This document shows positions 1 to 53,606 of a DNA stretch of 64,000 nt, one piece after another. Origin of the DNA: Geosiphon pyriformis uo1 (lineage: Eukaryota; Fungi; Glomeromycota); assembly GCA_016748015.1 (NCBI GenBank), contig JAAOMT010000682.1, forward strand, positions 41,951 through 105,950, read 5' to 3'. The position numbers and the translations under genes are program-made. The notes under the pieces are model-generated. The model was not told the DNA's origin. It saw only the letters and a list, made by a program, of their open reading frames with translations, and did not search any database. How positions within the stretch are numbered: position 1 is the first letter of the stretch; every line of letters begins with the position of its first letter.

Positions 1-3000
1 CCCAACAACAATCAGGCACAAACCAACAGTAGACTATTTCAACCAATCTCTCGCAGTCCTGCCCAATTTTGACTAGCACCAACTGGATACCTGAATCAAG
101 CTTTCTATCTTGGTCTCATAGAAGACCAGAGTTTTGATAAATCTATACCTGTGGAAAGAAGGGATGTAGAACAAATTTCCCAATCTTCCAAGCAAACAAA
201 AAACAATATCCCACCAGCTACTATTACTGAGAACACCACCCTAACCGCCATATTTCTTTTTGACATCAATAATTTGAACACTCATAGCCTTTTTAATAGA
301 GCAGCCATCAATTAGGATAAACCAATAATGGCTCTGTACACCAATACTAAAATCAAAAACATAGAAATTAAATTAATTCTCAATAGCAAATCAGCAAACA
401 GTATAATAATGAAACAATTCATAGATTAATTAGGTCACCAAGTAGATCGTGCCACAACTGTCTGAATTATTACCACAGATGACAATACCAAAACCCTAAT
501 CAGAAAAATTGATAACTTCTTTTTTAAAATCAATGGAATCCAAATTCCTACAAAGATCCTGGTCATAAAAGCCACACAATATCAAGTTCTCATCAGAAAT
601 GACTGGTTGGCCAAAGTCCATGTCACTTTTGACTAAAACACACAGGAATTACAGATTACTTTTAATGGACAACATGTCTGAGTTCTGGCTACATGCAAAC
701 ACTTCAAAGTCCAAAGCTTGGAAGAACTGCTAATTAAATTCGAAGACACAATACTACTACCAACCATAGAAACCTATTAAGTTTCATGAGCAAATGATTA
801 CCGAGCAGAGTTACTCTCAACACCAACTTAGAAAGAAAAGAGAAAAAGAAAAGCAAAAAAAGAACTACAATTAGCACCTGCAGGCTATTCCACCCCAAGT
901 CAAGGAAGTCAATAGTATCGAACCCTGAAATTAACTTGTGTTGACTGTGAGAAAAAGTTATCTTCTATGGGCACATGTATCAAAGATGATGAAAAATGGC
1001 CAACTACTACCAAACATTACTGCAAACCTTGTGTGTTAGAAAAATTTGGCAGACCAAAATAACAAGACAAATAAGACAATACACTATGTCTTGTCTGTAG
1101 TGAGATCCTGCCAAATAAAAAACTATAGAACAATGTTCCCGGCAGAGGAAGAACATATGATGAAGCATGTTAATACACCATCTTGATCAATGATTGGGTA
1201 CAAAAAGGAACTCCAATCAATGACATCTGGAAATGAGTGTTATGATAATTGGATGGATATTCCCACAATAAACATGAGATTTGGAGAATGGCAAATGCAA
1301 AAGCAGAGAGCACTACAATCAGAAAAATATAGAAAATCAAAAACAACCCCTTATCCCTTCCAGAACACAAATATATTATGACTTTTGACATCTTTAGCAA
1401 CATTGAAAATGATCCAGAATACTTCCACAAGCACTACCAAAACCTGGCACCGACTAGAGAAGAGCAGAAACAAAGATTAGCTGGCTTAAACACAAAACTG
1501 TGTGATCATTGTTTGATCTCTTGTCACTTTCAGTACTGTGATGAATGCAATATTATGTTTAACCTGCCTTCAAGAAAACTATACCTGATCATCAAACTAC
1601 TGAAACCTAAGGTAGAAAAGAAATTAATCACTAAGAACATGTTGTTTTAAAGATCCAACTGAGGATACCAAAACAGAACAGTATCTCATGTATTCCGATT
1701 TATCCAAAAAATTAGAATTAAAATAGTACAGTGACAACGAAAAAAAAATCTGCCCCAAAAGAGCACATGACACTGATGCTGGTTTTGACCTATAATATTC
1801 TAGACAATAACCCATAATTATAACCTCACATTCTCTTGTAAAAATAGACCTTAAAATAGTGTTAAAAATTCCTGTTAGTACAATGGTACAAGTTGCCTCT
1901 TAATCTAGTCTAGCCAAGAAAAAAATTGACATAAAAAGAAGAATTATCAATGCCAGTTACATGAGAAACATCATAGTGATGCTACAGAACAATTTGAACA
2001 AATCCTACAAAATAGAATCACAAGAAAAGATTGCCCAAGCTATCTTTCTACTCTTAGTCAAAATACTCCAATTAACTTTAATAACAACCCAAGAAAAATT
2101 AGGCTTCATTGCTCAAGAAATCAATAAATTTGGGTCAAGTAAAAGAGAAAATGTATCAGTTAATTTTACAGAGGAAGACAGTAACAAAGTAAAACTTATC
2201 TACGTCAACACTGTTATTTCTATCCCTCTGTACTGACAATACATTCTTAAAGTGAACAGAACAATCCAAAATCAAGCTCTGTTATTTAAAGTGGACCCCA
2301 AAATCTGTTTTCTAGCCGATGTTATTAACTTATATCTACTAGCAAAGGCCCATAAGCACTTCAAAATCCCTATTCACAATCTGACTGAAGACATTATAGA
2401 AATTCCAGAGAGAATCTTTATTAGTTCTATATTCCCAGATATTCAGAATCCAAATAAACCCCAGCCCATTCCAAAATTTTGCACAATTGTTCTTATTCTG
2501 TGACATTACCTCACAAGTATGGAATCTGCAAAAAAAAAGTTACTTGTTCATGCTAAAAGAAATCAATAAACTCAATTTGGGAAACCTAAACACTCTACAA
2601 CAAATGCAACTTAAGGTTTTACTGAACTAATATGCTGATGTCTTTGCCAGTGAAAATGAGTTCAGATGCACTGACATTGTAAAACATTAGATTGATATGG
2701 GAAACACTTAACTTATTAAACAGCGAACTTACCGAGTACCCTATTTGACAACAATCTTATCAAACAAGAAGTCCAATGAATGCTCAACAATGGCTTAATT
2801 AAAAAATTGTTAAGCTTTTGGTTCTCCCCAGTAGTTTTAGTCACCAAAAAAAATGAAAAGATATGATTCTACATGAATTACTAAAAGTTAAATAGCATCA
2901 CCTAAGGAGATAGTTATCCCACTTCCCTTATCCAAGAAATTCTGGACAATCTAGGAAAAAAAAAATAGTTCTCATCATTAAACTTAGCCAGCAGATATTG

Positions 3001-7074: not shown

Positions 7075-8599
7075 ATGGTCAGGCCATAAAACTGATCCTA
7101 GATAGTGATTCAGCAGGCAGCATTATTACATGACAATTCATGGACCAATTAGATCACCAAGTTGATTGTGCTGCCAGCACCAAAATCATAATAGCCAATG
7201 GAGCAATCAAAATTCTAATTGGTGAAATTGATGACCTACTTATCAAAATCAATGGCATCATAGTACTTATCAAAGTTCTTGTGATGGAAGCAATACAGTA
7301 CCAAGCACTCATTGGCAACAACTGGTTGTTTAAAACCAATGTAATACTTGATTGGAATATACAGAAGCTTCAACTTAGCCAGAATGGTTGATACACATGT
7401 GTACCAGTCATGTGTGGCCACTTCAAGCCTATCATTACACCATCAGCACCCCTTATCGAGTTCAATAATGAAGAAAAAAAACTGACCTGGGAAGCCTATC
7501 AAATTTCTTGGGCTGATAACGACCACAATGAGCTACCACCAGTTCTAAACTGGAAAGAAAAAAACAAAGAAAAAGAGAAAAAAAAAGGAAACATACCTAA
7601 AAAGACCAACAACAAACTGGAAACTAGTGGCTAGAGAAGTCCATACTCCAATACCAGATCAGAACCACCTTATATTTCTCTCAAATGCAAAGACTACAAG
7701 AAGAAACTGTTTTCAATGGAAGCTTGGATTGCACCCAACAAAGATTACTGAATACAAATCCACTATTACTGCAAGCCATGCCACAAAAAATAGTACAGCT
7801 ATCCAAAATGACAAGGCAAGTGGAACAACAAACCATGTCTCACTTGTGGAGAACAGTTGCTTGATAAAAAAATATGGAATAACATTTCTGATTAAGGAGG
7901 AATGTGCAATGCTTTGTGTTAATACATGATCCTTATAAGTGACTGGGTCAGTTGTGGCACTTCTATTACTGCAGCCTGACATTGAGCAATAACTCGGTTG
8001 GATGGTTATCCACATAATGAAAACAAGATTTGGCAGATAGCAAATGCCAAATTTGAAGGAGCCATGTCTAGCAAAATATTGGAAATCAAAAATAATTCTT
8101 CAGAACCAGTTGACATTGTCCTTATTCCAAATTCTAATGCTTTTCTCAACATAGAAACAGGCCCAGAAGAGTTTCATGAGCACTATCAGAATTTAGCACC
8201 CACAAAAGAAGAACAGAAACAGCACTTAGAAAAAATAAACACCTGATTATGTGACTACTGTTTGATTCCATGTGACTTTCAATATTGTAATAAGTGTGAC
8301 CTCATTTATAATCCACCACCACACATGATCTACACAATTCCAAAGGAAGAAGAACCAATTAGCAGCTGTGCATTAGAATCAGAATCAATTTTCAATTTTG
8401 ATTCAAACTCTGACAATGATGACAACAAAAACACTGGTTTCAGCTCTGCTCAATATGGCAACAAAAATAACAATGATCTGAACTCTAATTCAAACCCCAA
8501 AATATTCATTGCACTTTCTGACCTCTCTAAGAAGCAGAAACTAAAATGGTTTAGTGACAATAATAAGGGTATTATGCCAGAATGTACACATAATACTAA

Positions 8600-20457: not shown

Positions 20458-23400
20458 TTACTTATACTTGATATTTTTGGTTTGAAGCTGGTAAAATAGT
20501 TGAGCAAGTTTGGAAAAGTTTTTAATAAAATGGCAGTAGTAACTTGCAAATCTCAAGAATGCCCATAGTTTAATCAAGTTGATTGGTACTGGAAATTTCT
20601 TTACTATCTCAATCTTATCTGGATCTGTTTTGATGCCATCTTTGCTTATGACATGTTTCAAGAATTTTAATTCTGTTTTGCTAAAGAAGCATTTGTTTGT
20701 ATTCAATTTTAATCCTGTACATTTGAGTTTTTTGAAAACTTGTTGGAGATGATAAAAATGATTATCAAATGTTTTTAAAAACACATTGGTGTTATCCAAA
20801 TATACGACTACTGATTTTCATAGTAATCCAATGTAAACAATTTTCATTAATCATTGGAATATGGCTGGAGCATTTATTAAGCCAAATGGCATTACTTCAA
20901 ATTCAAAATTTCTCTTTTTTTTTGTGAATGCAGTCTTTTTTTTGTTGGCTAAATTTATGGCTACTTGCTAGTAACCACTATCTAAATCCAATGTTGAAAA
21001 CCATTTCTTTCCACTGAAAGCATCAAATAATTTTTGGATCTGTGAAATCAGATAACTGTCTCCATGAATAACTCTATTGAGTTTTCTATAATCCACACAA
21101 AAGCGAATTTTTCTGTTCTTCTTATGGACTAGTACTATTGGCAATGACCATAGACTCATGGATGGTTGAATTAATCTGTTGTCTAGCATTTGATTGATTT
21201 CTTGTCAGATGATTTCATGGCTGGCTGGTGGTATTCTGTATGCTTTTTGTTTAATTGGTATGACATTTCCAGTCTTAATCCAATGTTGAATAATGTTAGT
21301 TTTGCCAAACTTATTTTCACTCACAAAAATATCAGTGAAATTGTTAAGTAGCATTTTGATTTGTATATGTTGTAGTGAGTCTAAGTTTCCCAAGTTTATT
21401 TGTTTCAATTGTTCTGATTGGAGCAAATAACATTTATTTCATCCATATATAGCTTGTAATGTGATGTTCACATATTTACATAGTTGTGAGAAATCTGAAA
21501 TGTGGTTTGGTAATTGGTCCTCAACTTTAGTGGTTAAATATTCAATGATAGTTTCTTTTGGTATTTTGACAATGTCTCCAGTCATGTTGTAAATGGAGAT
21601 TTTAATATGATAATAGTTCTTGGCTGGTATATAGAGATTAGTAAGTCCAATCTCTTCTGACTCACAAATAGTTGGCTCTGCTTCAAAAATCTGGGCTTGA
21701 TCCTTTACTTTCTTTTCTATCATTAACATATACTAATCATATGATAGAATAGAAATTGGTTGACAGATGGAAATAATTTTTCTCTTGTCAACAACTTTTT
21801 CTTCTGTCATATTGACTGGTATGTCTATTCTATTCGTGAATTCAAATCCATTTATCCCTCTTGCTGTAATCCCTAATTTTTCCCTATTTTCTACTAAAAC
21901 TAACTGAACTACTTTAACCAAAGACAGAAATATTGCCTGTGCTATCTTTTTATTTGGTTCTATGATGTAGGTTTTTTCTGAGTTATTTTGTAACATTGCA
22001 ATAATATTTTTTACATATTCTGTATCAATTATTCCTCCTTGTATATTAATTTTCTTTTTTACTAAACTATTCTTAGATGCTAGTTAAACCATAGTAGTTG
22101 CTAAAATTTCCAGTGCTATTTTGAGATTAATACAGGTGTGCAAATGTGGTTCCAATTTGATGGCTTCTTTTCCTAAGTATTTCAAATCAAATTTTGTATC
22201 AGTATTATGTGCACATTCTGGCATAATATCTTTATTATTATCACTAAACTATTTAAGTTTCTGCTCCTTAAAAAGATTCAGAAGTATAATGTATTGTTTG
22301 GAATTTAAATTGGAGTTTGAATTGTTATTATTTTGGTTGTTATATTGGACAAAGCTGGAACCATTGTTATTATCATCATTGTTGTTGAAGTTTAAATTGG
22401 GATTAAACATTGATTCCAATTCAGATATACAGCTGTTAATTGGTTCTTTCTCTTCTAAAATTGTGTAGATCATGCATGATGGTAGATTGTAAATGAGGTC
22501 ACACTTATTACAATATTGAAAGTTACAGAGAATTAGACAATGTTGACACAGTTGAGTGTTCAACTGCTCTAAATGTTGTTCTTGTTCTTTCTTGGTATGT
22601 GTTAATTCTTGGTAATTTTTGTGAAATTGTTCTGGATCTATAGAGTCTAAGACAATATCTGAATTTGGGCCCCAATCAAGTTTTATAGGTTCTGGTAGAT
22701 TGTTTTTGATTGTTTTTATTTCTTTTGGTAATGCTTCTTTGATTTTGGTGAAGACCATATGCCAAATTTTATTATTGTTATGTGGACAACTGTCCAGATA
22801 TTTGACTGCTTGTTATCAAATGACTTCTATGGAAGTTTTTTTTCTTACCCAGTTACTAATTAGAATCATGTATTAGCACAATTTGTCACAAGTTTTTCCT
22901 CATCTAGAGATGTTATTTCATATTTTTTTATCTAACAGAGTCTCTTTACAAGTCATGCATAGCTCATTGTCTTATTTTTTTTGTTTTTTTGGTTATCCAA
23001 ACTGTTTGAAGATGCAGAAATGACAATAGAACTTTGTTGCCATTGGCCATTCCTTATTGTTGCTACAGCATGTGCCCATTGATGACAATTTCTTACCACA
23101 GTCGACACATACTAGCTTTGGTTGACAGTAGTTTGGCTGGTTTTGTGTGGTGGTGATGTATGGAGTATGAGTGAAGGTACTTGCTTGTGGTGAGTCATTT
23201 TCTATTTCTTTTTCTTTTTTTGTTGTTGTTTCAAGAAGGTATGGGCAGCAATTTATTGTGGTTTTTATTAGCCCACAAGACTTGGTAGGCTTCTCAAGTA
23301 GGTTTTTTCATTTCCTCTTTAAATTCAATTAGTGGTTGTGTGATGATTGGCTTGAAGTGTCCACAGATTGCTGATACTCATGTGTGATAATCATGTTGGC

Positions 23401-35954: not shown

Positions 35955-35978
35955 TTATATATATTATATATATATATA
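35955..35978. repeat. (TA)n microsatellite between the two LINE tails
   Basis: TTATATATATTATATATATATATA. Confidence 0.8.
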
Positions 35979-36108
35979 TTTTTTTATGCATTTTATGAAT
36001 AAAGCCCAACTGCTATCTAGTATATAGAACCAAACTAAGTAGAACAAACTAAATGCAGTTTATGCACTGGCTACATGTGGCCAACCACTCAGGCTAGACA
36101 AAGCAACA

Positions 36109-37363
36109 CTACACATCTATGCAAACAAAAACATTACCACCTAAACCAGAAAAAAAATAACAGCAAAAGCTTCTACAATACCAAGCATATGAACAATTCC
36201 ATCCGACAACAAAGATACCAAGCAACAAGACAGGCCTGAGATCCCACTATCATCTTTAAACAAACTAGCTTTTTCCATATTTACCCTATGCTTAGTTCTA
36301 ACAAGTCAGATCTTGGTATAATGTAATTCAACCACAAATTTAACATAATTAATAAGAGCCAAATCAGCCTTTTTTTTTCTTCAAAGATCAAAACAGCTTT
36401 AGCCCACCAGTTCTTTAACACAAAACTCTTGCATATAGTAGTATATAGACCCATATTCAAAGAATATGTTAATAGTGAATGTAAAACAGCTGATGTAGGC
36501 AGGCAAGAGAGGCCTATCAATGACACCTATTTTTTAGCCATCTCCTCCAAAATGTCACCACAGAGACCAATATTACCAAGACAAGCAAAACCATAATCTA
36601 ACAACTCTACATCTTTACACAACAAGCACAACACTCCAGGATAATTTTTATTATACAACCTCTTTCTAACTACTACTGGCAACTGTCTATGCACTATTTT
36701 CATCAAATAAGTGTACATATTAGCTTAGCATCTGCTAATAAACTCAGAGAGCATATGTAAGTCAGGATGTCAAATTTTTGCAGTAGTAACCCAATCTATT
36801 TCATTAACCATAGTATTTAAAACAACATCATAGCCAAGACCAGCCTCCTATTGAGCACGGCAAATTGACTGGTAAATGTCATGAACAAAATAACAAGTAT
36901 TACCAAACATAGCAGTATTCTCAGCAACCAAAAATTTCTTCTGACTTCCAACAGACAACAAAAGTAAAGAACAGGCAGTTTTTCCTGCCAACTTATTAGT
37001 CCTAACATTGCCCAAAACCTCTAAATATCTTTTAACTTTCACCTATTTAATTAAAATGTCTTTACTCCTAATAAGATCAGCTATATGCAATCTTTCAATC
37101 CAGCAACAATTGTGGAAATTTGGCATGGCAGATGAAATCTCTGAAACACAAGCATTAATTACAGATTGGCTGTCCAAATACAAAATCATAGCACAAGAAA
37201 ATGGAATACATTCCAAGGCCAAAGCAATAGCTTGCAACTCAGCCAGAGTAAAAGACAAAAGCCTATTTACTCTAACCCCAACACCCATGTTCATAGCCAA
37301 AAAATATGCAGTCACACCACTAATCACTTTAGCAGAACCAGCATCTTTTAAAGACCTATCTGT
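36109..37363 (-). pseudogene. LINE H ORF2 3' part (RNase H, Zn finger)
   Basis: LAELQAIALAL, YLDSQSVI, VKVK..GNVRTNKLA, CLLCKDVE. Confidence 0.88.
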
Positions 37364-38178: not shown

Positions 38179-38876
38179 TGTTACCAGAGGTTTTTGGTCT
38201 CTTTTCTTAAATGTTGTCGATACTTATTTGCTGTGAATTCACGTTTTCTGGATGTGGTTGAACCTCTAGTAACTGAATTTATCTTCAAATTATCTCCTAT
38301 AATTTGAACTGCTGGGCTTATAAGTGGAATGGCCAATTCCATGCCAGTTACTTTATGTAGTTACATTGTAGTAAACATCAACTCTTTCTCAGGAATTGCT
38401 CGTCTGGAAGCTCACTAAAATGTATAGTTATTTTGCTGTGAAAGTCAACTCTTCTACAAAAATCTTGTTTGTAGGCTACCCTAATGATTATAGTAAGAAA
38501 ATAAAAGAAAAAAAATAAAAAGATGTAAAAGAAATAAAATTCTGTCAAGGGAAACGTTTTCAATCCAGGTCTAGAGTCACTAACAGATTATTGAAATTGG
38601 TAGCTAATCAATTTCAAAACTTTAGTTGGGTTTTGAGAATTTTCCAAGTGCAATAATTAAAAAATTTGGTTTTTCGAATTATTTGATATTTATTTCTTTT
38701 TGTGTGTGTAAGAATGGTTCTAAGTGATAAATCTAAAGTAAGATACATTTTCTCGAAGAGAGAAGCTCTTCTTTTTATACAACTTGTCGTAACACTATTC
38801 TATGAACTTGAACTTTGCTATTTTCTACAATTTCACTGAACTAAAGATACATTTTGGCAAACTACAAGTTATTTCT
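38179..38876 (-). repeat. 3' LTR of F (runs into the assembly gap)
   Basis: About 97% identical by eye to 46808-47505. Confidence 0.93.
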
Positions 38877-39064
38877 NNNNNNNNNNNNNNNNNNNNNNNN
38901 NNNNNNNNNNNNNNNNNNNNNNNNNNNNNNNNNNNNNNNNNNNNNNNNNNNNNNNNNNNNNNNNNNNNNNNNNNNNNNNNNNNNNNNNNNNNNNNNNNNN
39001 NNNNNNNNNNNNNNNNNNNNNNNNNNNNNNNNNNNNNNNNNNNNNNNNNNNNNNNNNNNNNNNN
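38877..39064. other. Assembly gap (188 N)
   Basis: Run of n. Confidence 1.
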
Positions 39065-39596
39065 TTGGGTTTTGTAGTACGTTTTCACAGGTGTGGAATA
39101 GGTCATAAAGTCTAAGAGCAGCTCTGAGCCTGTAGCGACTGTTTGTTGATCCAGCTGTTGTCTTGAATTCATTGTGGAGTTGTTTCTGAATAGCTTTTTT
39201 TGTGAGGTTTGCTGTTGTAAGTTCCAGTTTCCATTCGTAGAGTGTTTTTCCAATGTGAAAATATCTATAGATTGGAGGATATTTAGTGTTTTCCTTATTG
39301 AGACACAGTTGAAGTCTTTGTTGAATTGTAGCATTTGGTGGAATACTAATCAGAATGAGCATTAGATTTTCTCTTAAAGCAAGCTTTAAAAGTTCTGGCA
39401 GGTGAATTCCAGTATAACTTCTTGTGTTCTTTTTATACGGGTAATATTTTCATGAATTTGGGGCTAAATTTGTAACTACTTCTGTTTGGGTATAATTAAT
39501 GTAGTTTTCAGTAACAGTAATGGATAATTCAGGTATTGTTTTTAAAGCTAACATTAGTTTTTGGGATAATTGTTGAATGTTTTGAGGAATAGTCAT
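39065..39596 (-). pseudogene. ORF3 of element F (3' end in the gap)
   Basis: ATG at 39596: MTIPQNIQQLSQKLMLAL...IYRYFHIGKTL...LRAALRLYDLFHTCENVLQNP; one internal TGA. Confidence 0.78.
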
Positions 39597-39717: not shown

Positions 39718-41103
39718 TTAAGTGTTCAAGTTGGGAGGCTGTTTAATGACAACTATTGATTCTAAATTTTGGGGAATATCTTCGGGATTGATTAAAGGGA
39801 AATGTGTACCAATTTATGGAATTAATGATTCAGGATTGTTTCTGGAATTATAGTGTTTCAAACAATCTCCATGTGCAACTTTTGCTAGAATTTTGTCATC
39901 AAGTCTTAGCTTGTATGATCCGTTGCCTAAAACTTTATGGATAAAAAATGGTCCATTCCATTTATTTTCAAATTTCTCACTCCATTGTTTTTCAGCTTTA
40001 GTTCTGTGTAAGAGAACTTTGTTTCCGATTTTAAATTTATTGGTGACTGGAGGCAATTTGTCATCATGCCATTCTTTTTGTCGAGCTTGGGAGTTTTCAA
40101 TATGGGTGGCTGCTATTCGTTGTTTTCCTTCCAACATGCTAAGCAGAGTGTAGACTCTTTGTTGAAGTGTTTCCTGAAAATTGTTTTTATTGATTGGTTG
40201 TGCTAGGTATGTTTCCACTGTGAACTTAATTGGTAGCATTGCTGTCCTTCTGTAAGTTAAATCAAATGGTGTGTGTTTTGTGGTATCTTGTTTTAGTGTT
40301 CTATATGCTAGTAACACTGATAGAATAAAGATATTCCATTTTTGCTCAAAATCGGTTGAGACTTTGGCTAATGACTCACACAATGTTCTGTTAAAATGTT
40401 CCACAAGTCCATTTGTTTGTGGATGGTAGGGCGAAGACAGAGGTCTTTTGACATTGAATTGTTCACAAATTTTTTGTATTAGGTTGTTCACAAAATGTGT
40501 TTCCTGGTAAGATAAAAGTTCAATTAGACATCCGTGTCTACAAATGATGTTTTCGTAGATGAAATTTGCTACTGATTTCGCATCTGCTCATTGAATGGCT
40601 CTGACTTCAGGCCATTTAGTAAGATAGTCTACAGCTACTGCAATATAACAGTTTTCTTGAGTGGTGATAGATAATGGTCCAACTAAATTGATACCAACTC
40701 GGTTAAAGAGTTGTTCAACTTTGATTGGATTTAATGGTTTAGTAGGGTGTGTTCCTCTTCTTCTTTGACAACTATCACAAGATTCGACATATTTGTGAAT
40801 GTCTTTCCTCATTCGAGGCCAAAAGTAGTATTCTAGTGTTCTTTGAGTGGTGCTATCTTTTCCGAAGTGTGCTGATGAAGGATTTGAGTGCATGTTGTAT
40901 AATATGATCTCTTTTTCCTGTTCTTGTATTAGTCTGAGTGGTTTGTCTGGGTTTTTGAAATTTCGATGATAAATAATGTTGTTGTGTAGAAAATATTGTT
41001 TGGCTTGTTGTTGTAGTTGATGTTTTTTATCTGGAGACCAATCTGTTGAGATTGTTAATGTTTCCAAATATTGTTTGAGATTGTTGTAGTTTTCTAAATT
41101 CAT
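39718..41103 (-). pseudogene. Integrase ORF of element F
   Basis: MHSNPSSAHF...CDSCQR (HHCC), GINLVGPL, HPQTNGLVEHFN, KWNGPFFIHKVLGNGSYKL. Confidence 0.93.
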
Positions 41104-41152
41104 TGTTTGTTGGCTTTTTTGGTTGGTTAAGTTGAGTGTTGGTTTTTGTTTT

Positions 41153-44100
41153 CTAATCTTGTCTCATTCTGGAGAGACAGTCAACATTAGTGTGGAGTTT
41201 TTTTGGTTTGTGATGTACTATGTATCGATAATTTGCTAGAAATCCTGTCTATCAGGTTTGTTTTGCATTCAGCTAAGTATTTTTGTTCTGAAGCCATTTG
41301 AGTCCAATATTATCAGTGATAATATCGAATTCTTTAGGCCTGAGATAAAGATTAAAGTGGTGTAGGGCCCAAATTATGGCTGCTGTTTCTAGTTCTGTGG
41401 CAGGGTAGTTTTTCTCAGCTGGTTTTAATATTCTGCTAGCATAAGCAATTACTCGCTCATTTCCATTGTCATTTAGTTGTGATAAGATGGCACCAAAGGC
41501 AGTATATGAAGCATCTGTAGCTAGTCGAAATCAGTTGCTGAAATCTGGGTAGGCAAGGATTGGGGCTGTTGTCAGTTTTTCTTTGAGAATTTCAAAAGCT
41601 TTTTGGTGTTTGGTAGTCTATTTGTATTCCACATTTTTGGTGGTGAGCTGGTTGAAGAGTTTTGCAATTTCTGAGAATCCTTTGATAAACTTCCGATAGT
41701 AGAATGCTAATCCTATGAATCCTCTTAGTTCTGTAGTATTTCGTAGAACTTTGAAGTTCTTAACAGCACTGATTTTTCCTGGATCTGGTTTGACTCCTTC
41801 TTCACTAACTATGTGACCAAGAAAGGCCAAAGTTGTTTTTCCAAAATGGCATTTTTCAATATTTAGTTTTAATCCTGCTCTACGTAATTGTTGAAAAACT
41901 TCTCACAGGTGAATTAAATGAAGTCCGAAAGATGGGGAATAAACATCAATGTCATCAAGATAAACAACTACTGATTTCCAAAGGAGTCCAGCATATACAA
42001 TATTTATGAGTCTTTGGAATGTTGTTGGCACATTGCATAATCCAAAGGATATTATATTGAATTCGTAGTTTTCTCCTTGTGTTGTAAATGCTGTTTTGGG
42101 ATGGTTCTTGGGATCTATGGCAACTTGCCAGTATCTGCTTTCTAGGTTTAATGTTGAAAAGTATTTAGATTTTCCAAGGGCATCTAACATGTCATTGATT
42201 CGCGGAAGAGGGTAAGCATCTCCAATGGTAACACTGTTGAGTTGTCAATAATCAACACAAAATTGTATCTTTCCATTCTTTTTTTTAACTAGGACCACTG
42301 GTAAGGCCCATGGACTCATTGATGGTTGAATAAGCCCATTGTTAAGCATCTGTTGTACTTCTTCTCGGATAAATTGGTGGCTTTCTGGAGCAACTCGATA
42401 TGCTTGTTGTCTTTTTGGTTTGGCATCTCCTGTATAAATTTGGTATTGGACTAAATCGGTTCTTCCTAAGTCATTGTTGTTTTCAGCAAAGATATCAGCA
42501 AATTCTGCAATTAGTTCTTTGAGCTGGGTCTGTTGTTATGGTTCAAGTTGTCCCATGTTGATTCGAGATAGTTTTTCCATAACAACATGGTAGTTTTTAG
42601 AGCTGAGATTTAGATTGATTTTTAGTAGTGAATGTCCAATAATTTCAGAAAAATTGGGGACTGTTTGGGGTAATTCTTGTTGAAATATGTTACTGTGAAT
42701 AATTCCAATTTCTAAGTTATTTAATAAAACTATGAGATAATTGTTGGGATTGTAAAAAGTAACTCGGACTTTCTTTGTTCCTTTTGGAATATAAATGTTT
42801 GGGATCAAGATATTATGTTTCAAGCAGATTTGTTTGTTTGATTCAAAAATTTGTTGTGTGGTTGTTGGCTTTTCACAAATGTAAATTTCAGAATGTTCTC
42901 TAAAGGGTGAAATGGTAATTGGTTGTGGAAGTTGTAAAATCTGGTGAAATTCTTTCTGTTCATTGAGAGCTATGTTTACTGAAACTGTGAAACGTCCAGT
43001 TGAACCAAAACCTTGTGTTCCTCTTTCACTTTTTTCCAACTGTTCTCTTTGATTAATTAATTGTAAACCCGAAATGTTGATTAAGAGTAGATAGATAGCT
43101 TGAGCAATTTTTTCAGCATATCCAATTTTGAAAAGTTTATCAGTTTCATTTTGTAACATGACTGTGATGTCTCCTGTGTATCCAGCATTGATGATTCCTC
43201 CTGTAATATTGATTCCTTTGATTGCCAAGGATGATCAAGAAGCAATTTGAACCATTGCTCCTGGTGGGATTTCGAAGGCAATTTTGAAGTTGATTTTTGT
43301 AAGAAATTTGGGTTTGAGAGTAAGAATATCTTTTCCTGAATATCTTAGATCATATCTAGCATTGATCTTGTGGGCTTTTTCTGGTTTTATTCCTTGTCCA
43401 TTGTTGTTGAAATATTTGAGTTATAAAGCAGGCTGATTTTTGATGAGATAGATGGGTGTTGTCTCAATTTTTTCTGTTGCTTCAAGTTCTCCGAATTCAA
43501 TTTTGTATTCATCATTTTTGCTGGGCAAGGGAATGCTAAGAGCATAACATTCAGGACACCACTATTCATTACAAGGCATAATACATTCTTCACATAGCCT
43601 AATGTTCATTTGCTCTAATCGTTGAATTTGAGTTTCTTGGGTTGGGTAGGTGTGACTTGCAATTTGGTGGTAGACTTCTACTTTGTCTTCGTAATTGAAT
43701 CCAGCTAATTCCATGGTGTATTCAATGTATTCTGTTTCCTTCATTTGGCAAACATCTTTTTTGGTAGCTCCATTAATTAATGCCATTGCTAGGTCAAAAA
43801 TCATTTCGGCATCATGGGGGTAGTGATAAAGTTTGTTGAGAGCACTATTGTATGCTGCATTAAAGGGTGTTCCTCTTTTTACTTTTTCTGAAATTGATAA
43901 AGCATATTGGCAGGTCTGATCACAGACTCCTTCTTTCATGGCTACATCAATCCAATTGCATTCTTCTGGTAGCATATCTCCACAAGTCAAACAAGAGGTG
44001 TTGTCACATTTTCCGCTCCTTTTTATTAGATGGCCCCATCGTTCTCTGTGACAAGTCTTGCAGTAATAACAAGTATGATTTTCATATTCTTCTTTGGGTG

Positions 44101-46787
44101 AAATGCAGGCTCCCATTGACGATAGTTTCTTGTGGCAGTCTTTACATTTAAGGGGAATATAGGGGCGTTGTTTCTTTGGTTCGGGTTTTGAATAAGGTAT
44201 ATTCCATCCAGAGGTTTCAGATTCAGAGTGCGGGGTAAAATGTTCTTGTTCTGTTTCATCGGCCCAGTTGGACGTTGATTCAAGAGCCATGAATGTTTCA
44301 ATGAGGGGATTTTCCTCTTCCGGTTCAAATTCAAAAGCCGGGGCTTTCTCAGAGCATTTGTTGAATGTACCACAAATGGCAGATATCCGGGCGTGTTGTC
44401 CTTGGTAGGAGATTGTTAACTCTTGTGTTTCCCAATTCAGATTAGCATTGGCTTTTTGAAGCCAATCATTTCCAATAAAAGCTTGGTATTGGGGTGTGTC
44501 CATTACAAGAACTTTGACTGGAATGGTGATTTCATCAAGAGTGAACGGAAAATTGTCAATTTTTCCTATTGGGGTCTTTTTCATACCATCAGCAGTGACA
44601 ATTACTGTTTGAGCTGGTCAGTTAACATTTCTTTTTAACTGTTGCATTAACTGGTAGGTGATAATGCTTCCGGTGGATCTATTGTTTAAGATCAAGCGAA
44701 TTGTCTTTCTTTTGACTTTGGCTTCAGTGTACATGGCCGTGATTGCTTTTTGTTCATTGGCGGCTGCATTGCTAAGCAGAAATGGTGACTTATTTGCTTC
44801 GAACTCAAAAAGGAATATATCTGAAAGGTTAGCATTTTTAGCAATTCTGGCTGATGGAATTGTGGTGGAAGTATAGGAAGGGTTTTGTTGTTGTGCTGCA
44901 GCTCTACCTTCCAAGAGTGCAGTATGGTGAAAATTCTGTTCTTCTGGCATTGTTAAATAACTGGGTTGAGTGTGGTAGTGGTTGGGTCTTGGTTGAGTGA
45001 TATTTCGGGGAACCAATTGGTTGTTCGAACTGATTCTATTGTTGTTTGCTTGGTATTAGTTTTGTGGTGTGAATTGATTTTGTGTAAGCAGTCTTCAAGC
45101 AGGTACTTGATAATGTTGTGTGAGTGGTTGTTGGTATTGCTGTGGGATTGGCTGTGGGACAGGCTGATAATAGTTATTTTGGTATTGGGGTCTTGGTGAA
45201 TAGTAAGCTAGTGGTGGCGGTTAATAATAAGATTGCTGTGGTGAAGAGTAACGTTGATTACTCCTATTTTGTTGGTCTCATTGTAGCTTTCTGCAATCTC
45301 TTTTCCAGTGGCCAGGGATTCTACAGTAATGGCAATTCTGAGGCTGGTTATTGGAAAGTGGTGCAAAGTTATTTTGATTTCGTTTTTGGGGTGGTTGATA
45401 TCTTTGGGGTTGCTGTTGTTGTTAATTGGTAAAATAGTTTTCAACCTTCTTTGTGAGTTGGTCAATTTTTTCCTCAGCTGCTGAGCTGGTTTCTCCAATT
45501 GCCAAATTTACAAGTTTTGTGCGGTTGGCCTCTTCCATAGCCATTTCATATCTTTTTGCATGCTGTATGGCAGAGTTTAAATCTTCTGGCGCATGTGGGC
45601 AAACTTTTTTAATTAGTTTATCTTTTAGACCAGCGATAAATTAATCCAAGATTTGAGCATCGGAATAATAATCATTTGTTTCGAGTTGGTGAATTTGTCT
45701 GAGAAGTTTGTTGAATTTCCTAATATAAGTTATAACGGATTCGGAGGGTTCTTGTTTGATATTTCAAAAACAATTGTGAAGAGTGATGGAGGTGTTATTG
45801 TTGGTGAACTGTTCAAGAAAGGCTGCTTTGAAAGCATTCCAATTATTGAATGGGGTGGCCAAGTTTTCAAACCATTTTCCTGCTGTTCCTTTGAGAAAGT
45901 AGGGAATTGTTCTTAACATTCTGGCAGCATTCCATCCATTTGCATCTCCAGCTTTAGTAACTTGGTTGAGCCATTCTTAGGGACTGGTCTCAATATTTTC
46001 TCTATTGAATTTAGGGATTTTTGTGATGTATGTTGTTATTTTGTCTTTTTTCTTTTCACTGTCTATTGATTCTTCTTCAGTTATTTCAGAGTTGTTTTCT
46101 TTATTTGCTGCTGTCTCAGAGTGTTCACTTTGATTTTCAGCTAGAAAATCAAGGAGATTGGAACTAGTTTGAAGGGGTTCTTGTTGTCTGGTGGGACCTC
46201 TGAGTAATGTAAAATCTTCTGGTCTTGCAAATCGATTTAAGGGTGAATTAGGTGTTTGTGCTTGTGCAAGTAAAGCTAGAAAAGGTGTAATAGTAAGTAG
46301 AAGTTTTGAACTGGTTCCTTGTTCAGGTGTTTGTAAATGTTTGAATAATATTTTGGGAGTATTGGGTGTTGTGTGAACAGGTCAGTTATCTCTTTGTCTT
46401 TTGTTGCTACTTGTTTCAGGTTCAGATTCGAGTTCAAAGACAAATTGTGCGTTTGCAAGATATTTTTCTTCACAGAATCAAATGATATTATAATCAAGTT
46501 CTTCAAAATAAGTAGTGCAAGCTTTAGCACTAATGTTTTCTGATTCAGTGTTGGAATAGTGTAGTATGTTCTCAAGAAGATTTCTTTTAACTATTGTAAT
46601 ATTATAGTTTTCAAAAAGGTAGTCATTGATTCAATTTTCGATGTATTGAAAAAGTGTTTTCTTGAAAGCTATGATTCCATCATGTATTTCAAATCATTGT
46701 TTGCAGTGTGTGTAAATCAATTGATAGTACTCTAAGGTTGTGATGTCTGAGGCAGTCGTCACTTTGAATTTGTTGTTGCTGTGTTAT
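41153..46787 (-). pseudogene. Element F gag-PR-Cys-rich-dUTPase-RT-RNase H
   Basis: CHYCRIPGHWKRDC knuckle; LILNNRSTG; 340-aa ORF with CxxC pairs; GGIINAGYTG, KIAQAI, RGTQGFGSTG; VVYLDD; LATDAS..ELE..ITDN; ends NVDCLSRMRQD*. Confidence 0.93.
42990..43380 (-). pseudogene. dUTPase domain of element F
   Basis: Five motifs: NARYDL, xSSLA, GGIINAGYTGDI, EKIAQAI, ERGTQGFGSTG. Confidence 0.93.
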
Positions 46788-46807
46788 TTCTATGGGAGAG
46801 CACCAAA

Positions 46808-47788
46808 TGTTACCGGAGGTTTTTGGTCTCTTTTCTTAAATGTTGTCAATGCTTGTTTGCTGTGAATTCACGTTTTCTGGATGTGGTTGAACCTCCAGTA
46901 ACTGAATTTATCTTCAAATTATCTCTTATAATTTGAACTGCTGGGCTTATAAGTGGAATGGCCAATTCCATGCCAGTTACTTTATGTAGTTACGTTGTAG
47001 TAAACGTCAACTCTTTCCCAGGAATTGCTCGTCTGGAAGCTCACTAAAATGTATAGTTACTTTGCTGTGAAAGTCAACTCTTCTACAGAAATCTTGTCTG
47101 TAGGCTACCCTAATGATTATAGTAAGAAAATAAAAGAAAAAAAATAAAAAGATGTAAAAGAAATAAAATTCTGTCAAGAGAAACGTTTTCAATCCAGGCC
47201 TGGAGTCACTAACAGATTATTGAAATTGGTAGCTAATCAATTTCAAAACTTTAGTTGGGTTTTGAGAATTTTCCAAGTGCAATAATTAAAAAATTTGGTT
47301 TTTCGAATTATTTGATATTTATTTCTTTTTGTGTGTGTAAGAATGGTTCTAAGTGATAAATCTAAAGTAAGATACATTTTCTCGAAGAGAGAAGCTCTTC
47401 TTTTTATACAACTTGTCATAACACTATTCTATGAACTTGAACTTTGCTATTTTCTACAATTTCGCTGAACTAAAGATACATTTCGGTGAATTACAAGTTA
47501 TTTCTGTGAACTATTAGATATTTCGGTGAACTATCAATTATTTTGGCAAATTTCTATAAATTTTGGCAAACTTTTGAATGTTACATAGTTTGGGGTATTG
47601 CATAATTGATCATTGTAATTAGGTTACATTTGTGTTGTGTACAATTTGGGTTATTAATTAAATGATAATTTTGGACATTTTTGCTAATATAATAAGTAAT
47701 AATTTGAAATGATAATATATGCTAATTAATAATAGGAATTATAAGATAGTTTTATGCTCAATGATATCTCTAATTTTGTCTGGTAACA
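46808..47788 (-). repeat. 5' LTR of F (981 bp)
   Basis: TGTTACC...GGTAACA perfect 7-bp terminal inverted repeat. Confidence 0.94.
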
Positions 47789-47958
47789 CTGGCACAGAAT
47801 TGGCCATTCCACTTATAAGCCCAGCAGTTCAAATTATAGGAGATAATTTGAAGATAAATTCAGTTACTAGAGGTTCAATCACATCCAGGAAATGTGAATT
47901 CACAGCAAACAGGCATCAACAACATTAAGAAAAGAGACCAAAAACCTCCAGTAGCATT

Positions 47959-47976
47959 TGGTGCTTTCCCATGAAA
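47959..47976 (+). promoter_or_regulatory. Primer binding site of G
   Basis: TGGTGCTTTCCC, 2 nt after the LTR end; same arrangement in C, D, F. Confidence 0.75.
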
Positions 47977-47989
47977 ATAACACAGTAAC

Positions 47990-50900
47990 AACAACTTCAA
48001 AAGTGGCAACTCAAACAGATTCAAGAACTCTAGAGTATTATCAGTCAATCTACACCCACTGCAAGCAGAGATTTAACATCCCAGATGGAATTGAAACATT
48101 CAAGAAAACACTTTACCAGTACATTGAAAATTGCATCAACAATTATTTTCTTGGAGACTACAACATTTCAAAAGTTAGACACAACTTATATGAAAGCTTA
48201 ATACATCACTCTCATCTAAACACGCAGGATTTTAACAGTCAAACACTTGAAACATACTTCCAAGAACTCAACTTCAATATTATTCAGTATTGTGAAGAAA
48301 ATTACCCAGTAGAACAGAAATTTTCTCTTAGTTTTGAATCAGAAACCGAAGAAGGAAAAGGAAAAAGAAAACAAAAACTCAGAACTACTCCCAATACACC
48401 TAAAACCACTGCCAAACATTTACAAACTCCAGAACAAGGAACCAGCTTTAAATTATCACTCTCAATCATATCATTTCTAGCTTCACTTGCTCAACCGCAA
48501 ACACCAAGCTCATTACTTATTCAGTTTTCAAAAATAGATGATTTTCAGTCATTCAAAAGCTCTATTTAACAACAGAAACCAATATTAACCAGCACAAATC
48601 TTATTGACTACTTAGCAGAAAATCAAAGTAAAGAGACCGAATTAAAACAAGAAACAGAAGACTTAGAAAATAAAGAAAAAATGGTCTCCATATATATTGC
48701 AAAGATCCCTGAGTTCACAGGAGAAGACAGTGAAACCAGTCCTCAAGAATGGCTTAACAAAGTCTCAAAAGCAAGAGATACAAATGGTTGAAATACTGCC
48801 AGAATATTAAAAGCAATTCTATATTTCTTACAAGGAATGGCTGGCAAATGGTTTGAAAACTTGGAAGCCTCACCAGAAGACTGGAAAGCATTCAAAACTG
48901 CTTTCCTAGAACAGTTCACTGACAATAACACTTCCATTACCCTTCGAAATCGGTTCTGAAATATCAAGCAAGAACCAAGTGAATTAGTTATAACCTATCT
49001 TGAGAGATTCAACAAACTGCTTAGAAGGATTTGCCAATTAGAAACAAATAAATACTACTCTAATGCACAAATTTTGGATCAATTCATTGCTGGATTAAAA
49101 GACAAACTTATTAAGAAAGTTCGCCCACATGCACCAGAAGATTTAGCCACTGCTATTCAATAGGCAAAAAACTATGAAATGGCCATAGAAGAAGCCAACC
49201 GTACCAAACTTGTTAATCTGGCTATTGGAGAAACCAGCTTAGCAGCTGAAAAAAAGATTGACCAATTAACCAAGAAAGTTGAAAACTACTTCACCAACCA
49301 ACAGCAACAACAGCAGCCACAGCAATCACAACAACCACAAAAATACTAACCCTCACAAAGATGAAATCAAAATAACTTTGCACCACTTTCTAATAACCAG
49401 CCTCAGAATTGCCATTACTATGGAATCCCTGGCCACTGGAAAAGAGATTGCAGAAAGCTACAATGAGACCAACAAAATAGGAGTAATCAACGTTACTCTC
49501 TACTACAGCAATCTTATTATCAACCACTACTACTAGCTTACTATCCACCAAGACCCCAATACCAAAGTAACTATTATCAGCCCACTCCACAGCCAATCCA
49601 ACAGCAATACCAACAACCACCCACACAACATTATCAAGTGCCTGCTTGAAGATTGATTCCGCAAAATCAGTTCACACCACAAAACCGATACCAAGTAAAC
49701 AATAATAGAATTAATTTGAACAACCAATTGGTTCCCCGAAATTTAGCTCAACCAAGACCCAACCACTATCATACTCAACTTAGTTATTTTATGATGCCAG
49801 AAGAACAGGATTTTTGCCATACTGTACTCTCAGAAGGTAGAGCTGTAGCACAACAACAAAACCCTTTCTATACTCCTACCACAATCCCACCAGCCAGAAT
49901 TGCTAAAAATGCCAACCTTTCAGATATATTCCCTTTCGAATTTGAAGCAAATGAATTACCATTCTTGCTTAGCAATGCAGTGGCTAATGAGCAAAAAGCC
50001 ATCACTGCAATGTACACAAAAGCTGAAGTAGAAGGAAAGCCAATTCGCTTGATTCTAAACAGTGAATCTGCCAGAAGTATCATCACCTATCAATTGATGC
50101 AACAGCTAAAGAGAAATGTTGACTGACTAGCTCAGACAATCATTGTCACTGCTGATGGCATGAAAAAGACTCCAGTAGGAAAAATTGACAACTTCTCATT
50201 CATAATTGATGAAATCACCATTCCAGTCAAAGTTCTGGTCATGGATGCTCCCCAATACCAAGCTCTTGTCAAAAACAATTGGCTCCAAAAAGCCAATGCT
50301 AATCTGAATTGGGAGACACAAGAGTTAACAATCTTCTACCAAGGATGACATGCTTGAGTACCTGCTACTTGTGGTACATTTAATAAATGCTCCAAAAAAG
50401 CCCCGGCTTTTGAATTCGAACTGGAAGAAGAAAAACCCATCATTGAAACATTTATGGCACTTGAATCAATCTCTAATTGGGCTGATGAAACTGAAAAACA
50501 GTATTTTTCAACAAACAATTCTCTTGAAACAAAAAAATCAGTAACACTCAGATGGAATGTCCCCTATTCAAAACCAGAACCATGAAAACAACACCCTTAC
50601 ATTCCATTTAAATGCAAAGATTGCCACAAAAAACTCTCATCAATAGGAGCTTGTATTTCACCTGAGGAAGAATACAGAAACCATATCTGTTACTATTGCA
50701 AATCCTGCCACTGAGAATGATAGGGACACCTAGTCAAAAAAAGTGGAAAATAGGACAGAATGCCCTGTTTAACTTGTGGAGAACAATTACCTAATGAATG
50801 CAACTGGATTGATGTTGCATTCAGAGAAGGAGTCTGTGATCAAACATGTTAATATGCTTTTTTAATCTCAGAAAAAGTAACAAGAGAAACCTTTTTTGAT

Positions 50901-53606
50901 GCTGCTTACAACAGTGTCCTCAACAAACTGTACCATTACCCTCATGATGCCGAAATGATTTTTGATCTAACAATGGCTTTAATCAATAGAGCCACTCAAG
51001 AAAATGTTTGTCAAATAAAAGAATCAGAATACATTGTATACACTTTTGAAATCACTGGATACAACTATGAAGATGAAGTAGAAGTATATTACCAAATTGC
51101 CAGTCACACTTACCCGACTAAAGAAGCTCAAGCTCAATGGCTAGAGCAAATAAACATTAAATTGTGTAAAGAATGCATAATGCCTTGTGATGAGCAATGG
51201 TGCCCTGAATGCTATGCTCTTAGCATTCCCCTGCCCAGTGAAAATAATGAAAACAAAATTGAATTTGGAGAACCTAAAGCAACAAAAAAAATTGAAGCAA
51301 CACTCATCTATCTTATCAAAAATCAGCCTGCCTTACAACTCAAATACTTCAACAACAATAGATAAGAAATAAAAACCGAAAAAGCACATGAAATTGATGC
51401 TGAATATGACCTAAGATATCCAAACAAGAATACTCTTGTTCTCAAACCCAAATCTCTCACAAAAATCAATCTCAAAATTGCCCTTGAAATTCCACCAGGA
51501 GCAATGGTTCAAATCACCTCCCAGTCCTCTCTGACAAGCAAAGAAATCAATGTCAAAGGAAGAATAATCAATACTAGATATACTGGTGATATAACAGTAA
51601 TACTCTAAAATGAAACCAATAAACCTTTCAAAATTGAACATGCTAAAAAAATTGCTCAAGCTATCTATTTACTCTTAATCAATATTTTGGGTTTACAGTT
51701 AGTCAATCAAAGAGAACAATTGGGAAAAAGCGAAAGAAAAACACAAAGTTTTGGTTCAACTGGATGATTCACAGTTCCAGTAAACATAGCTCTCAATAAA
51801 CAGAAAAAATCTCACCAGTTTCTACAACTTCCACAACCAATTACCATTTCACTTTTTGGAGAACATCATGAAGTTTACACATGTGAAAACCTCATGACTA
51901 CTCAACAAATCTTTGAATCCAATGAACAAATTTGCTTAGAACACAACATTTCAATCCCAAACATCTATGTTCCAAGAGGAGCAAAGAAAGTCCAAGTTAC
52001 TTTTTACAATCTCAACTATCAACCCGTTATTTTATTGAACAAGTTAGAAATAGGAGTCATTCACAGCAACATCTTTCAGCAGGAACAACCCCAAACAGTT
52101 TTAAATTTCTCAGAAATCATCGAACACTCTTTACCAAAAATCAGCCCCAGACCAAGCTTTGAAAACTACCATGTTGTTATGAAAAAACTATCTCGAATCA
52201 ACATGGAACAACTAGAACCATACCAACAAAAACAGCTTAAAAAGCTAATAGCAGAATTTGCCAATATCTTTGCTAAAAACAACAATGACCTAGGAAAAAC
52301 TGATTTAGTACAACACCAAATTTATATTGGAGATGCCAAACCAAGATGACAACAAGCCTACCAAGTTGCTCTAGAAAGTCACCAATTTATCCGAAATGAA
52401 GTACAATGGATGCTTAACAATGGGCTTATTCAGCCATCAATAAGTCCATGGGCCTCACCTGTGGTCCTAGTTAAAAAGAAAAATGGAAAGATATAATTTT
52501 GTGTTGATTATTGACAACTCAACAGTGTCACTATTGGAGATGTCTACCCTCTTCCCTGAATTGATGACATGCTGGATGCTCTTGGGAAGTCCAAATACTT
52601 TTCGACATTAGATTTAGAGAGTGAATACTGGCAAGTTGTCATGGATTCCAAAAATTGCCCCAAAACAGTATTCACTACTCAAAGAGAAAATTACGAGTTC
52701 AACATAATGCCTTTTGGATTATGCAATGCACCAGCAACATTCCAAAGACTCATGGATGTTGTTTACAAAGGCTTTCTTTGGAAATCAGTAGTTGTCTATC
52801 TTGATGATACTGATGTTTATTCACTATCTTTTGAATTACACTTAAAATATCTGCACGAAGTCTTTCAACAATTATAAAAAACAGGATTGAAACTGAACAT
52901 TAAAAAATGCTACTTTGGAAAAACAAGTTTGGCCTTTCTTGGTCACATTGTTAGTAAAGATAAAATCAAACCTGATCCAAGAAAAATAAGCACTGTTAAA
53001 AATTTCAAAACTCCTCAAAATACTACAGAACTAAAAAAATTCATTGGATTAGCATCCTACTATTGGAAATTTATCAAAAAATTCTTAGAAATTGCAAAAC
53101 CCCTCAACCAGCTTACCACCAAAAACGTTGAATACAAATAGACTATTGAACACCAAAAAGCTTTTGAAATTCTCAAGAAAAAACTGACAACAGCTCCAAT
53201 TCTTGCCTACTCAGACTTCAGTAGCCAATTTCAATTAGCAACAGATGCTCCATACACTATCTTTGGTGCCATCTTGTCACAATTAAATGACAATGGAAAT
53301 AAGTGAGTAATTGTTTATGCCAGCAGAACATTAAAACCAGCTGAAAAAAATTATCCTGCCACTGAATTGGAAACAACAGCTGTAATTTGGGCCCTACATC
53401 ATTTCAACCTTTATCTCTGGCCAAAGGAATTTGATATTATCACTGATAATATTGGACTCAAATGGCTTCAGAACAAAAACACTCAGCTGAATATCAAACA
53501 AACCCAATGGACAGAATTTTTAGCCAACTACTAATACATTGTACACTACAAACCAGAAAAACTCCATACCAACATTGATTGTCTCTCCAGAATGAGACAA
53601 AATTAG
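47990..53606 (+). pseudogene. Element G gag-PR-Cys-rich-dUTPase-RT-RNase H (single frame with point stops)
   Basis: ORF-track pieces at 47958, 49653, 50160, 50955, 51894, 52569 and 52887 are all in one frame; knuckle ~49410-49451; dUTPase ~51380-51770; YLDD ~52797; ends NIDCLSRMRQN*. Confidence 0.93.

What the first reader, a model, noticed from the sequence alone, without database searches (positions are those of the whole stretch)
43540..44160. ~250-aa multi-CxxC domain inserted between protease and dUTPase
Seen in F: CKDC..CYYCKTC..CLTC..CDQTC, then a helical stretch with YPHD, then CEEC.xx.C...CPEC. The equivalent Cys pattern occurs in A (~930-1560), B (~7670-8320), D (~22490-23150) and G (~50600-51215). 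Established: the PR-RT linker of Ty3/gypsy is normally short and has no zinc cluster. Inference: a novel multi-zinc module (LIM/treble-clef-like pairs plus a ribbon), possibly released by the protease alone or fused to the dUTPase.
Basis: partly seen in the sequence, partly recalled or inferred. Interest (0 to 1): 0.75.

Follow-up and report, generated by a model that had tools for sequence, protein, structure and literature searches.

The report
Three-zinc module inside fungal retrotransposon Pol
The Ty3/gypsy jumping genes of the fungus Geosiphon carry, in frame between their protease and dUTPase, a conserved 205-residue domain with 13 fixed cysteines that matches no catalogued protein family; it is predicted to bind three zinc ions and is likely cut out as a small accessory protein that grips another protein rather than nucleic acid.

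Summary
Confirmed. The window is Geosiphon pyriformis DNA packed with decayed Ty3/gypsy elements. Five of five pol genes carry a 212-216-codon Cys-rich domain in frame between protease and dUTPase. At 29-37% identity, 11 of 18 Cys columns are invariant against 26 of 191 others (p=1.7e-5); F-G dN/dS is 0.08. Thirteen Cys are the top residue in all five subgroups, including one stop-free metagenome protein: two four-Cys fingers, a helical middle, and a C-terminal ribbon. No Pfam, PHROG, NCBIfam, PDB or viral-structure match; only the first finger models as a generic treble clef. Corrections: the core is about 205 aa, YPHD is not conserved, it is not LIM, and it is net acidic, unlike nucleocapsid. 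Protease-site-like motifs on both sides favour release over fusion (inferred). Of the hits that could be named, all but one are Geosiphon; ranks 151-424 were not shown. The scan earlier noted different Cys/His inserts at the same position in other genomes (unchecked). A new, lineage-restricted Pol accessory domain; function untested.

The parts
43529..44164 (-). Cys-rich domain of element F (212 codons, one TAG stop at 43562-43564)
44051..44146 (-). Finger 1, C-x2-C-x24-C-x2-C; models as a treble clef (pLDDT 63-86 over residues 1-40); mildly basic, invariant KKL
43910..43993 (-). Finger 2, C-x2-C-x19-C-x3-C running into a helix; TRASH/FCS-like spacing, poorly modelled (pLDDT 41-56)
43595..43909 (-). 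Helical middle: predicted three-helix bundle (model 84-132, pLDDT 78-86) then three acidic helices
43547..43594 (-). C-terminal C-x2-C-x3-C-x4-C-x2-C; four constant Cys (likely one ribbon-type site) plus a more variable middle Cys; not modelled (pLDDT under 50)
44282..44308 (-). P-x-x-E-T-F-M-A-L, candidate protease site before the domain (inferred)
43442..43456 (-). P-I-Y-L-I, candidate protease site before dUTPase (P-V-N-I-I in P0245) (inferred)
44381..44800 (-). Aspartic protease of F, catalytic motif decayed
42992..43420 (-). dUTPase of F
42539..42988 (-). Unnamed beta-rich segment between dUTPase and RT; weak likeness to dUTPase motifs 3-4
41255..42520 (-). Reverse transcriptase and RNase H of F
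39856..40950 (-). Integrase of F, separate reading frame behind the stop that ends RNase H
44900..46099 (-). gag of F with one CCHC knuckle, same frame as pol
46808..47788 (-). 5' LTR of F
38179..38876 (-). 3' LTR of F (97% to the 5' LTR over 698 bases; runs into an N gap at 38877-39064)
50595..51230 (+). Copy in element G (76% to F)
919..1566 (+). Copy in element A (33% to F)
7668..8315 (+). Copy in element B (37% to F); its dUTPase is pushed to about 9500 by a later insertion
22483..23127 (-). Copy in element D (29% to F)

Best explanation
This is a conserved domain encoded in frame in the Gag-Pol polyprotein of a Geosiphon Ty3/gypsy lineage, predicted to hold three structural zinc ions and likely cut out by the element's protease as a 260-280-residue accessory protein that likely works as an adaptor binding another protein inside the particle. 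Shown: in-frame position, purifying selection, 12 constant Cys in three groups of four, net acidic charge. Predicted: treble-clef finger 1 and helical bundle. Inferred: zinc as the metal, cleavage on both sides, a protein partner. My first candidate for the partner is the element's own integrase, which here is a separate reading frame and so cannot ride into the particle as part of Gag-Pol.
For: Frame continuity gag-PR-domain-dUTPase-RT-RH in F and G, and without a stop in P0245. dN/dS 0.08 for F-G against 0.12-0.25 for PR, dUTPase, RT and IN; 0.17-0.34 in the three other unsaturated pairs. 2155 of 2320 residues at the 12 core columns are Cys, 136 Tyr. Net charge of P0245 by segment +2, -2, 0, -10, -4; medians over all hits +4, -3, +1, -6, -2. 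A [VI]-N-hydrophobic-hydrophobic word stands at the gag CA/NC junction (LVNLAI, MVNIVI, AVNLIM), right after dUTPase (PVNIAL, LVNMIE, EVNHIY) and right before dUTPase in P0245 (PVNIIE) (read by eye); Ty1 protease sites have Val/Ile at P2 and P2' (PMC6952103, passage). A/B/D-type copies have a 60-80-residue low-complexity linker before dUTPase. Integrase starts in a new frame after a stop in 4 of 4 elements inspected. zf-FCS-type fingers are reported in protein-protein as well as nucleic-acid binding (PMC4047054, passages).
Against: No partner is shown. The cleavage motif was read by eye, not counted (the script for it was lost), and F-type copies read PIYLI rather than VNxx. The invariant surface-type residues include Lys12, Lys13, Lys51, Lys141 and Trp52, Trp70, Tyr86, which would also suit nucleic-acid binding. 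Models are weak overall (pLDDT 58.4 and 68.7, pTM 0.39 and 0.46), so Cys pairing beyond finger 1 rests on spacing. Synonymous sites are near saturation, so dN/dS is rough. Earlier scan notes call the stand-alone integrase widespread, while this domain was found almost only in Geosiphon, which weakens a dedicated integrase-recruiting role.
Confidence: 0.42

Rival explanations
1. The domain stays fused to the trimeric dUTPase and tethers it to the RNA/cDNA at the site of reverse transcription, as nucleocapsid does in betaretroviral NC-dUTPase.
For: It always directly precedes dUTPase; NC-dUTPase is a stable zinc-finger-dUTPase fusion that keeps both activities (PMC1802613, abstract and introduction); finger 1 is mildly basic and superposes on RNA-binding L24e/Rlp24 and S14-type fingers at Z about 4; unchecked scan notes report other Cys/His modules in front of dUTPase in other genomes.
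Against: Whole domain is net acidic, -14 in P0245; no CCHC knuckle; a protease-site-like word sits before dUTPase; gag already has its own knuckle; Z about 4 is shared by protein-binding LIM, ZZ, FYVE and Rim fingers.
Confidence: 0.25
2. It is a counter-defence factor, released from Pol, that binds a host protein (for example a uracil-DNA glycosylase, a silencing factor or a ubiquitin ligase), in the manner of lentiviral zinc-binding accessory proteins (analogy recalled).
For: Evolves faster than the enzymes between subfamilies (29-39% against 46-57%) while keeping its metal core; lineage-restricted; acidic helical half; next to a uracil-avoidance enzyme; host DNA shows strong CpG loss (o/e 0.16); Geosiphonaceae underwent a striking LTR expansion (PMC11952901, passage).
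Against: No sequence or fold likeness to any known inhibitor or adaptor; no positive selection seen; no host partner tested.
Confidence: 0.15
3. The cysteines bind another cofactor (iron or an Fe-S cluster), or pair in a cross-braced RING/PHD-like way rather than as three serial zinc sites.
For: One subgroup member scores E=0.0019 to the PHD-like PF13771, below its cut-off (18.8 against 29.1 bits); finger 2 and the ribbon are poorly modelled; five Cys at the C-terminus.
Against: CxxC knuckle pairs with treble-clef geometry for finger 1; no His at a PHD/RING position in all groups; the fifth C-terminal Cys is only 52-57% outside the F group.
Confidence: 0.1
4. It is a functionless captured or decayed spacer kept only as an open frame.
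For: All window copies are dead; no function known; no homologue outside these elements among the hits shown.
Against: Cys and Trp fixed across five subgroups at 30-45% identity; dN/dS as low as in the enzymes.
Confidence: 0.04

Closest known systems
dUTPase-bearing Ty3/gypsy elements: PosPlaTy3-5 of Postia placenta; bdelloid Juno, Vesta, TelKA (PMC2864245, PMC5408684; passages read)
   Same: dUTPase between protease and RT; Juno adds one extra Zn knuckle in this interval.
   Different: No multi-Cys, 205-residue domain before dUTPase is described in the passages read; Juno's knuckle follows dUTPase; here integrase is a separate frame and no chromodomain was detected by Pfam.
Betaretroviral NC-dUTPase (M-PMV, MMTV; PMC1802613, abstract and introduction read)
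   Same: A zinc-finger module directly N-terminal to a retroelement dUTPase.
   Different: NC has CCHC knuckles, is basic and comes from gag by frameshift; this domain lies after the protease, is net acidic, has four-Cys groups and a helical bundle, and is probably cleavable.
TRASH clan fingers (zf-FCS, FLZ, L24e/Rlp24; consensus CX2CX14-30FCSX2C from PMC4047054)
   Same: Finger 2 has C-x2-C-x19-C-x3-C followed by a helix; finger 1 superposes on L24e/Rlp24 (Z 4.5, rmsd 2.7, 42 residues).
   Different: FCS reads V/T/I/M-C-D; no Pfam hit; the structural score is generic.
LIM domain
   Same: Finger 1 superposes on one LIM half (PINCH1, Z 4.2, rmsd 1.8, 37 residues); two fingers in tandem.
   Different: No His third ligand, 19 residues rather than 2 between fingers (LIM pattern recalled), no Pfam LIM hit.

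Membership tests
Ty3/gypsy LTR retrotransposon (host element) | Order PR-RT-RNase H-IN | tested here: met
Ty3/gypsy LTR retrotransposon (host element) | RT closest to Ty3 RT; gag of Ty3 capsid type | tested here: met
   P0245 best PDB hit Ty3 Gag-Pol E=2e-38; PF03732 and PF19259 in a Geosiphon relative
Ty3/gypsy LTR retrotransposon (host element) | Direct LTRs | tested here: met
   46808-47505 against 38179-38876, 97%
Ty3/gypsy LTR retrotransposon (host element) | Integrase continuous with Pol (usual, not obligatory) | tested here: not met
   stop after RNase H and new Met in another frame in 4 of 4 inspected
dUTPase-bearing gypsy elements (PosPlaTy3-5 type) | dUTPase between PR and RT | tested here: met
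LIM domain | His as third ligand and two-residue spacer between fingers (pattern recalled) | tested here: not met
   third ligand Cys in all groups, spacer 18-19 residues
LIM domain | Treble-clef geometry of each finger | tested here: inconclusive
   finger 1 Z about 4; finger 2 poorly modelled
TRASH clan / zf-FCS | C-x2-C-x14-30-C-x3-C spacing followed by helix | tested here: met
   finger 2
TRASH clan / zf-FCS | Phe-Cys-Ser at the third Cys | tested here: not met
   column after the third Cys is Asp in all five groups
TRASH clan / zf-FCS | Profile or fold match to a clan member for finger 2 | tested here: inconclusive
   no Pfam hit in 31 members; region not spanned by the fold-search rows
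Nucleocapsid / NC-dUTPase | CX2CX4HX4C knuckle and basic charge | tested here: not met
Nucleocapsid / NC-dUTPase | Resistance to protease at the junction with dUTPase | not testable with these tools
   only motif inspection
PHD/RING cross-brace finger | Profile score above cut-off and conserved His ligand | tested here: inconclusive
   one member 18.8 bits against cut-off 29.1; 0 of 31 others; no His shared by all groups
Zinc-binding protein | Bound zinc | not testable with these tools
   inferred from Cys spacing only

The most novel reading that the evidence does not exclude
A retrotransposon accessory protein hidden inside Pol: a three-zinc adaptor, released by the protease, that either loads the separately translated integrase into the particle or disarms a host defence against uracil-containing or methylated cDNA; with the unrelated Cys/His inserts noted in other fungal genomes, the protease-dUTPase interval would be a recurrent slot for accessory zinc modules.
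Probability: 0.2. Interest if true: 0.8.

Novelty: new variant of a known kind. Interest (0 to 1): 0.5.

Why it matters
Ty3/gypsy Pol is thought of as PR, RT, RNase H and IN with a few known add-ons. This is an undescribed, selected, multi-metal domain carried by hundreds of copies in the fungus whose LTR elements expanded strikingly, and one stop-free version (P0245) makes it directly testable for metal content, processing and partners. It would also explain a large block of 'hypothetical proteins' in the Geosiphon annotation as transposon remains. Its reach is limited by its narrow known range and the lack of any functional evidence.

Tried and rejected
Profile and sequence searches with no significant match: Pfam on 31 members, best E=0.004, none above cut-off; PHROGs best 0.0095 (72); NCBIfam best 0.02 (73); PDB sequences best 0.12 (29); phage genomes by tblastn best 0.2 (92). 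Fold searches: Foldseek PDB 0 with E<=0.001 for both models; BFVD 0 (67); VIA-align wide best Z 5.5 and 6.6, generic helical bundles over about 50-60 residues; second look best Z 4.7 (90). These do not show the fold is new: finger 2 and the C-terminal third were barely tested. Range: viral contigs, 221 pattern matches, none confirmed; Cys-spacing DNA pattern gave 25 viral and 17 metagenome loci, 0 of 42 scoring with the profile; word search with the P0245 domain returned only itself among 86 candidates; the large alignment was too variable for a locus scan; a one-record search was uninformative. The protein Atlas held none of three sequences. No RNA holder listed. No complex prediction was obtained, so domain-dUTPase and domain-integrase contacts are untested. 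No whole genome was held. YPHD as a catalytic His-Asp motif rejected (Glu in P0245). Cys20 and Cys32 rejected as ligands (not shared across groups). A badnavirus second Cys-rich region was considered from memory; listing only seen, spacing differs, not pursued. Literature searches found no description of this domain; the Geosiphon genome paper itself did not come up in these searches, the Ty3 processing paper is not held, and supplements and repeat libraries were not read.
Full report
Setting. The window is fungal DNA: the F stretch is 100% identical to a predicted protein of Geosiphon pyriformis. It is a stack of decayed retroelements with many stops and CpG at 0.16 of expectation. Element F (minus strand, LTRs at 46808-47788 and 38179-38876, 97% alike over 698 bases) reads gag, protease, the Cys-rich domain, dUTPase, an unnamed segment, RT and RNase H in one frame, then integrase in another. 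RT of a relative is closest to Ty3 RT among solved structures.

The observation. The 13 core Cys codons of F lie between 44146 and 43549. All five pol genes found in the window by tblastn (A, B, D, F, G) have the domain between protease and dUTPase; in B a later insertion separates it from dUTPase. Identities to F are 76, 33, 37 and 29%. Eleven of 18 Cys columns are invariant against 26 of 191 others (p=1.7e-5); the two exceptions among 65 core codons are Tyr codons one transition away. The conserved block is about 205-212 residues, not 250.

Selection. Pairwise dN/dS for F-G is 0.08 in the domain against 0.12 (PR), 0.25 (dUTPase), 0.19 (RT) and 0.22 (IN); three more pairs give 0.17-0.34, and six of ten pairs are saturated. 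So it was a constrained part of the protein while the elements were active, though it diverges faster than the enzymes between subfamilies.

Range. Word searches gave 271 and 361 hits; all 120 listed in each were named Geosiphon. A profile search of 1.84 billion representatives gave 424 hits at E<=0.001, of which 150 were shown: 21 were already named Geosiphon, and of 30 further ones looked up (of 129) 29 were Geosiphon and one, P0245, an unnamed ENA record. Ranks 151-424 were not visible, so relatives in other fungi are not excluded. The Geosiphon proteins are gene models spliced across dead elements and are no evidence of expression. P0245 is a stop-free 1064-residue PR-domain-dUTPase-RT stretch with intact protease and dUTPase motifs, 42% identical in the domain to its nearest neighbour; its host is unknown. 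Viral and metagenome scans gave only chance matches.

Anatomy. Over 368 domain stretches sorted by motif into five groups (241, 92, 27, 7, 1), 13 Cys are the commonest residue in every group: C7/10/35/38, C57/60/80/84 and C193/196/200/205/208. At 12 of them 2155 of 2320 residues are Cys and 136 Tyr; C200 is only 52-57% outside the F group. That gives three groups of four. The YPHD His is Glu in P0245. AlphaFold2 models reach pLDDT 58.4 and 68.7: finger 1 and a three-helix bundle (84-132) are confident, finger 2 and the C-terminus are not. Finger 1 superposes on treble-clef fingers of many kinds (LIM half, ZZ, FYVE, Rim, L24e/Rlp24) at Z about 4; the bundle gives generic matches up to Z 6.6. 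Finger 2 has the spacing of TRASH-clan fingers but Asp in place of the FCS Ser. No family library or structure library gives a significant match.

How it likely works. The domain is net acidic (-14 in P0245; only finger 1 is basic), unlike nucleocapsid. Read by eye, a [VI]-N-hydrophobic-hydrophobic word recurs at the capsid/nucleocapsid junction, after dUTPase and, in P0245, just before dUTPase, and a P-x-x-E-[TA]-[FY] hydrophobic word follows the protease in all groups; Ty1 protease sites have Val/Ile at P2 and P2' (PMC6952103, passage). I could not count these. They suggest release of a 260-280-residue protein. With structural zinc, an acidic helical half and no catalytic motif, a protein-binding adaptor is the best reading (0.42). 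Integrase begins in a new frame behind a stop in 4 of 4 elements inspected (confirming two earlier scan notes), so it needs a route into the particle and is my first candidate partner; this is inference only. Rivals: an NC-dUTPase-like tether (0.25; PMC1802613, abstract and introduction), supported by invariant Lys and Trp residues; a counter-defence factor (0.15); another metal or pairing (0.10); an inert spacer (0.04).

Comparison with what is known. dUTPase between protease and RT is published for Postia and for rotifer elements, and Juno has an extra Zn knuckle there (PMC2864245, PMC5408684, passages), so the interval is not always short. Eight paper searches found no description of this domain; repeat libraries, supplements and the Geosiphon genome paper were not seen. 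PMC11952901 (passages) reports a striking LTR expansion in Geosiphonaceae and Ambisporaceae. The scan's own unchecked notes describe two other Cys/His inserts between protease and dUTPase in other genomes; a look-up by sequence found no look-alike of this one.

Verdict. A real, selected, undescribed multi-Cys domain in the Pol of a fungal Ty3/gypsy lineage: a new variant of a known kind of element. Metal, processing and partner are untested. Interest 0.5.

Noticed in passing
window 40950-41250 (-), 53500-53800 (+), 3860-4150 (+), 11580-11930 (+): RNase H ends at a stop and integrase starts at a new Met in another frame in elements F, G, A and B.
   Followed up: partly
window 42539-42988 (-) and copies: A second unnamed segment of about 150 residues between dUTPase and RT; profile comparison gives a weak likeness to dUTPase motifs 3-4 (P=0.008, probability 5%), possibly a degenerate dUTPase-like copy.
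   Followed up: partly
window 43529-44164 (-) against 50595-51230 (+): Synonymous divergence of F and G is far higher in the Cys domain (dS 1.43) than in dUTPase, RT or IN (0.49-0.56), hinting at recombination that swapped this segment.
   Followed up: no
window 39065-39550 (-), also about 55000-55700 (+): A reading frame with one stop (MTIPQNIQQL...) lies between integrase and the 3' LTR of F and runs into the N gap; no Pfam match. Possible extra ORF.
   Followed up: no
window 46100-46800 (-): About 230 codons of low-stop frame upstream of the capsid region, in the gag frame and present in Geosiphon gene models such as P0064; an N-terminal gag extension of unknown kind.
   Followed up: no
window 46588-48177: Elements F and G stand head to head on opposite strands; G's 5' LTR is cut to about 170 bases at 47788 where F's LTR begins.
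   Followed up: no
window about 30000-37300 and 56900-61300: Two decayed elements 65% alike, apparently non-LTR retrotransposons with an RNase H-like end (read by eye).
   Followed up: no
P0245 (unnamed ENA record, 19 kb contig): A stop-free member of this lineage with intact protease and dUTPase motifs; the natural substrate for experiments.
   Followed up: partly
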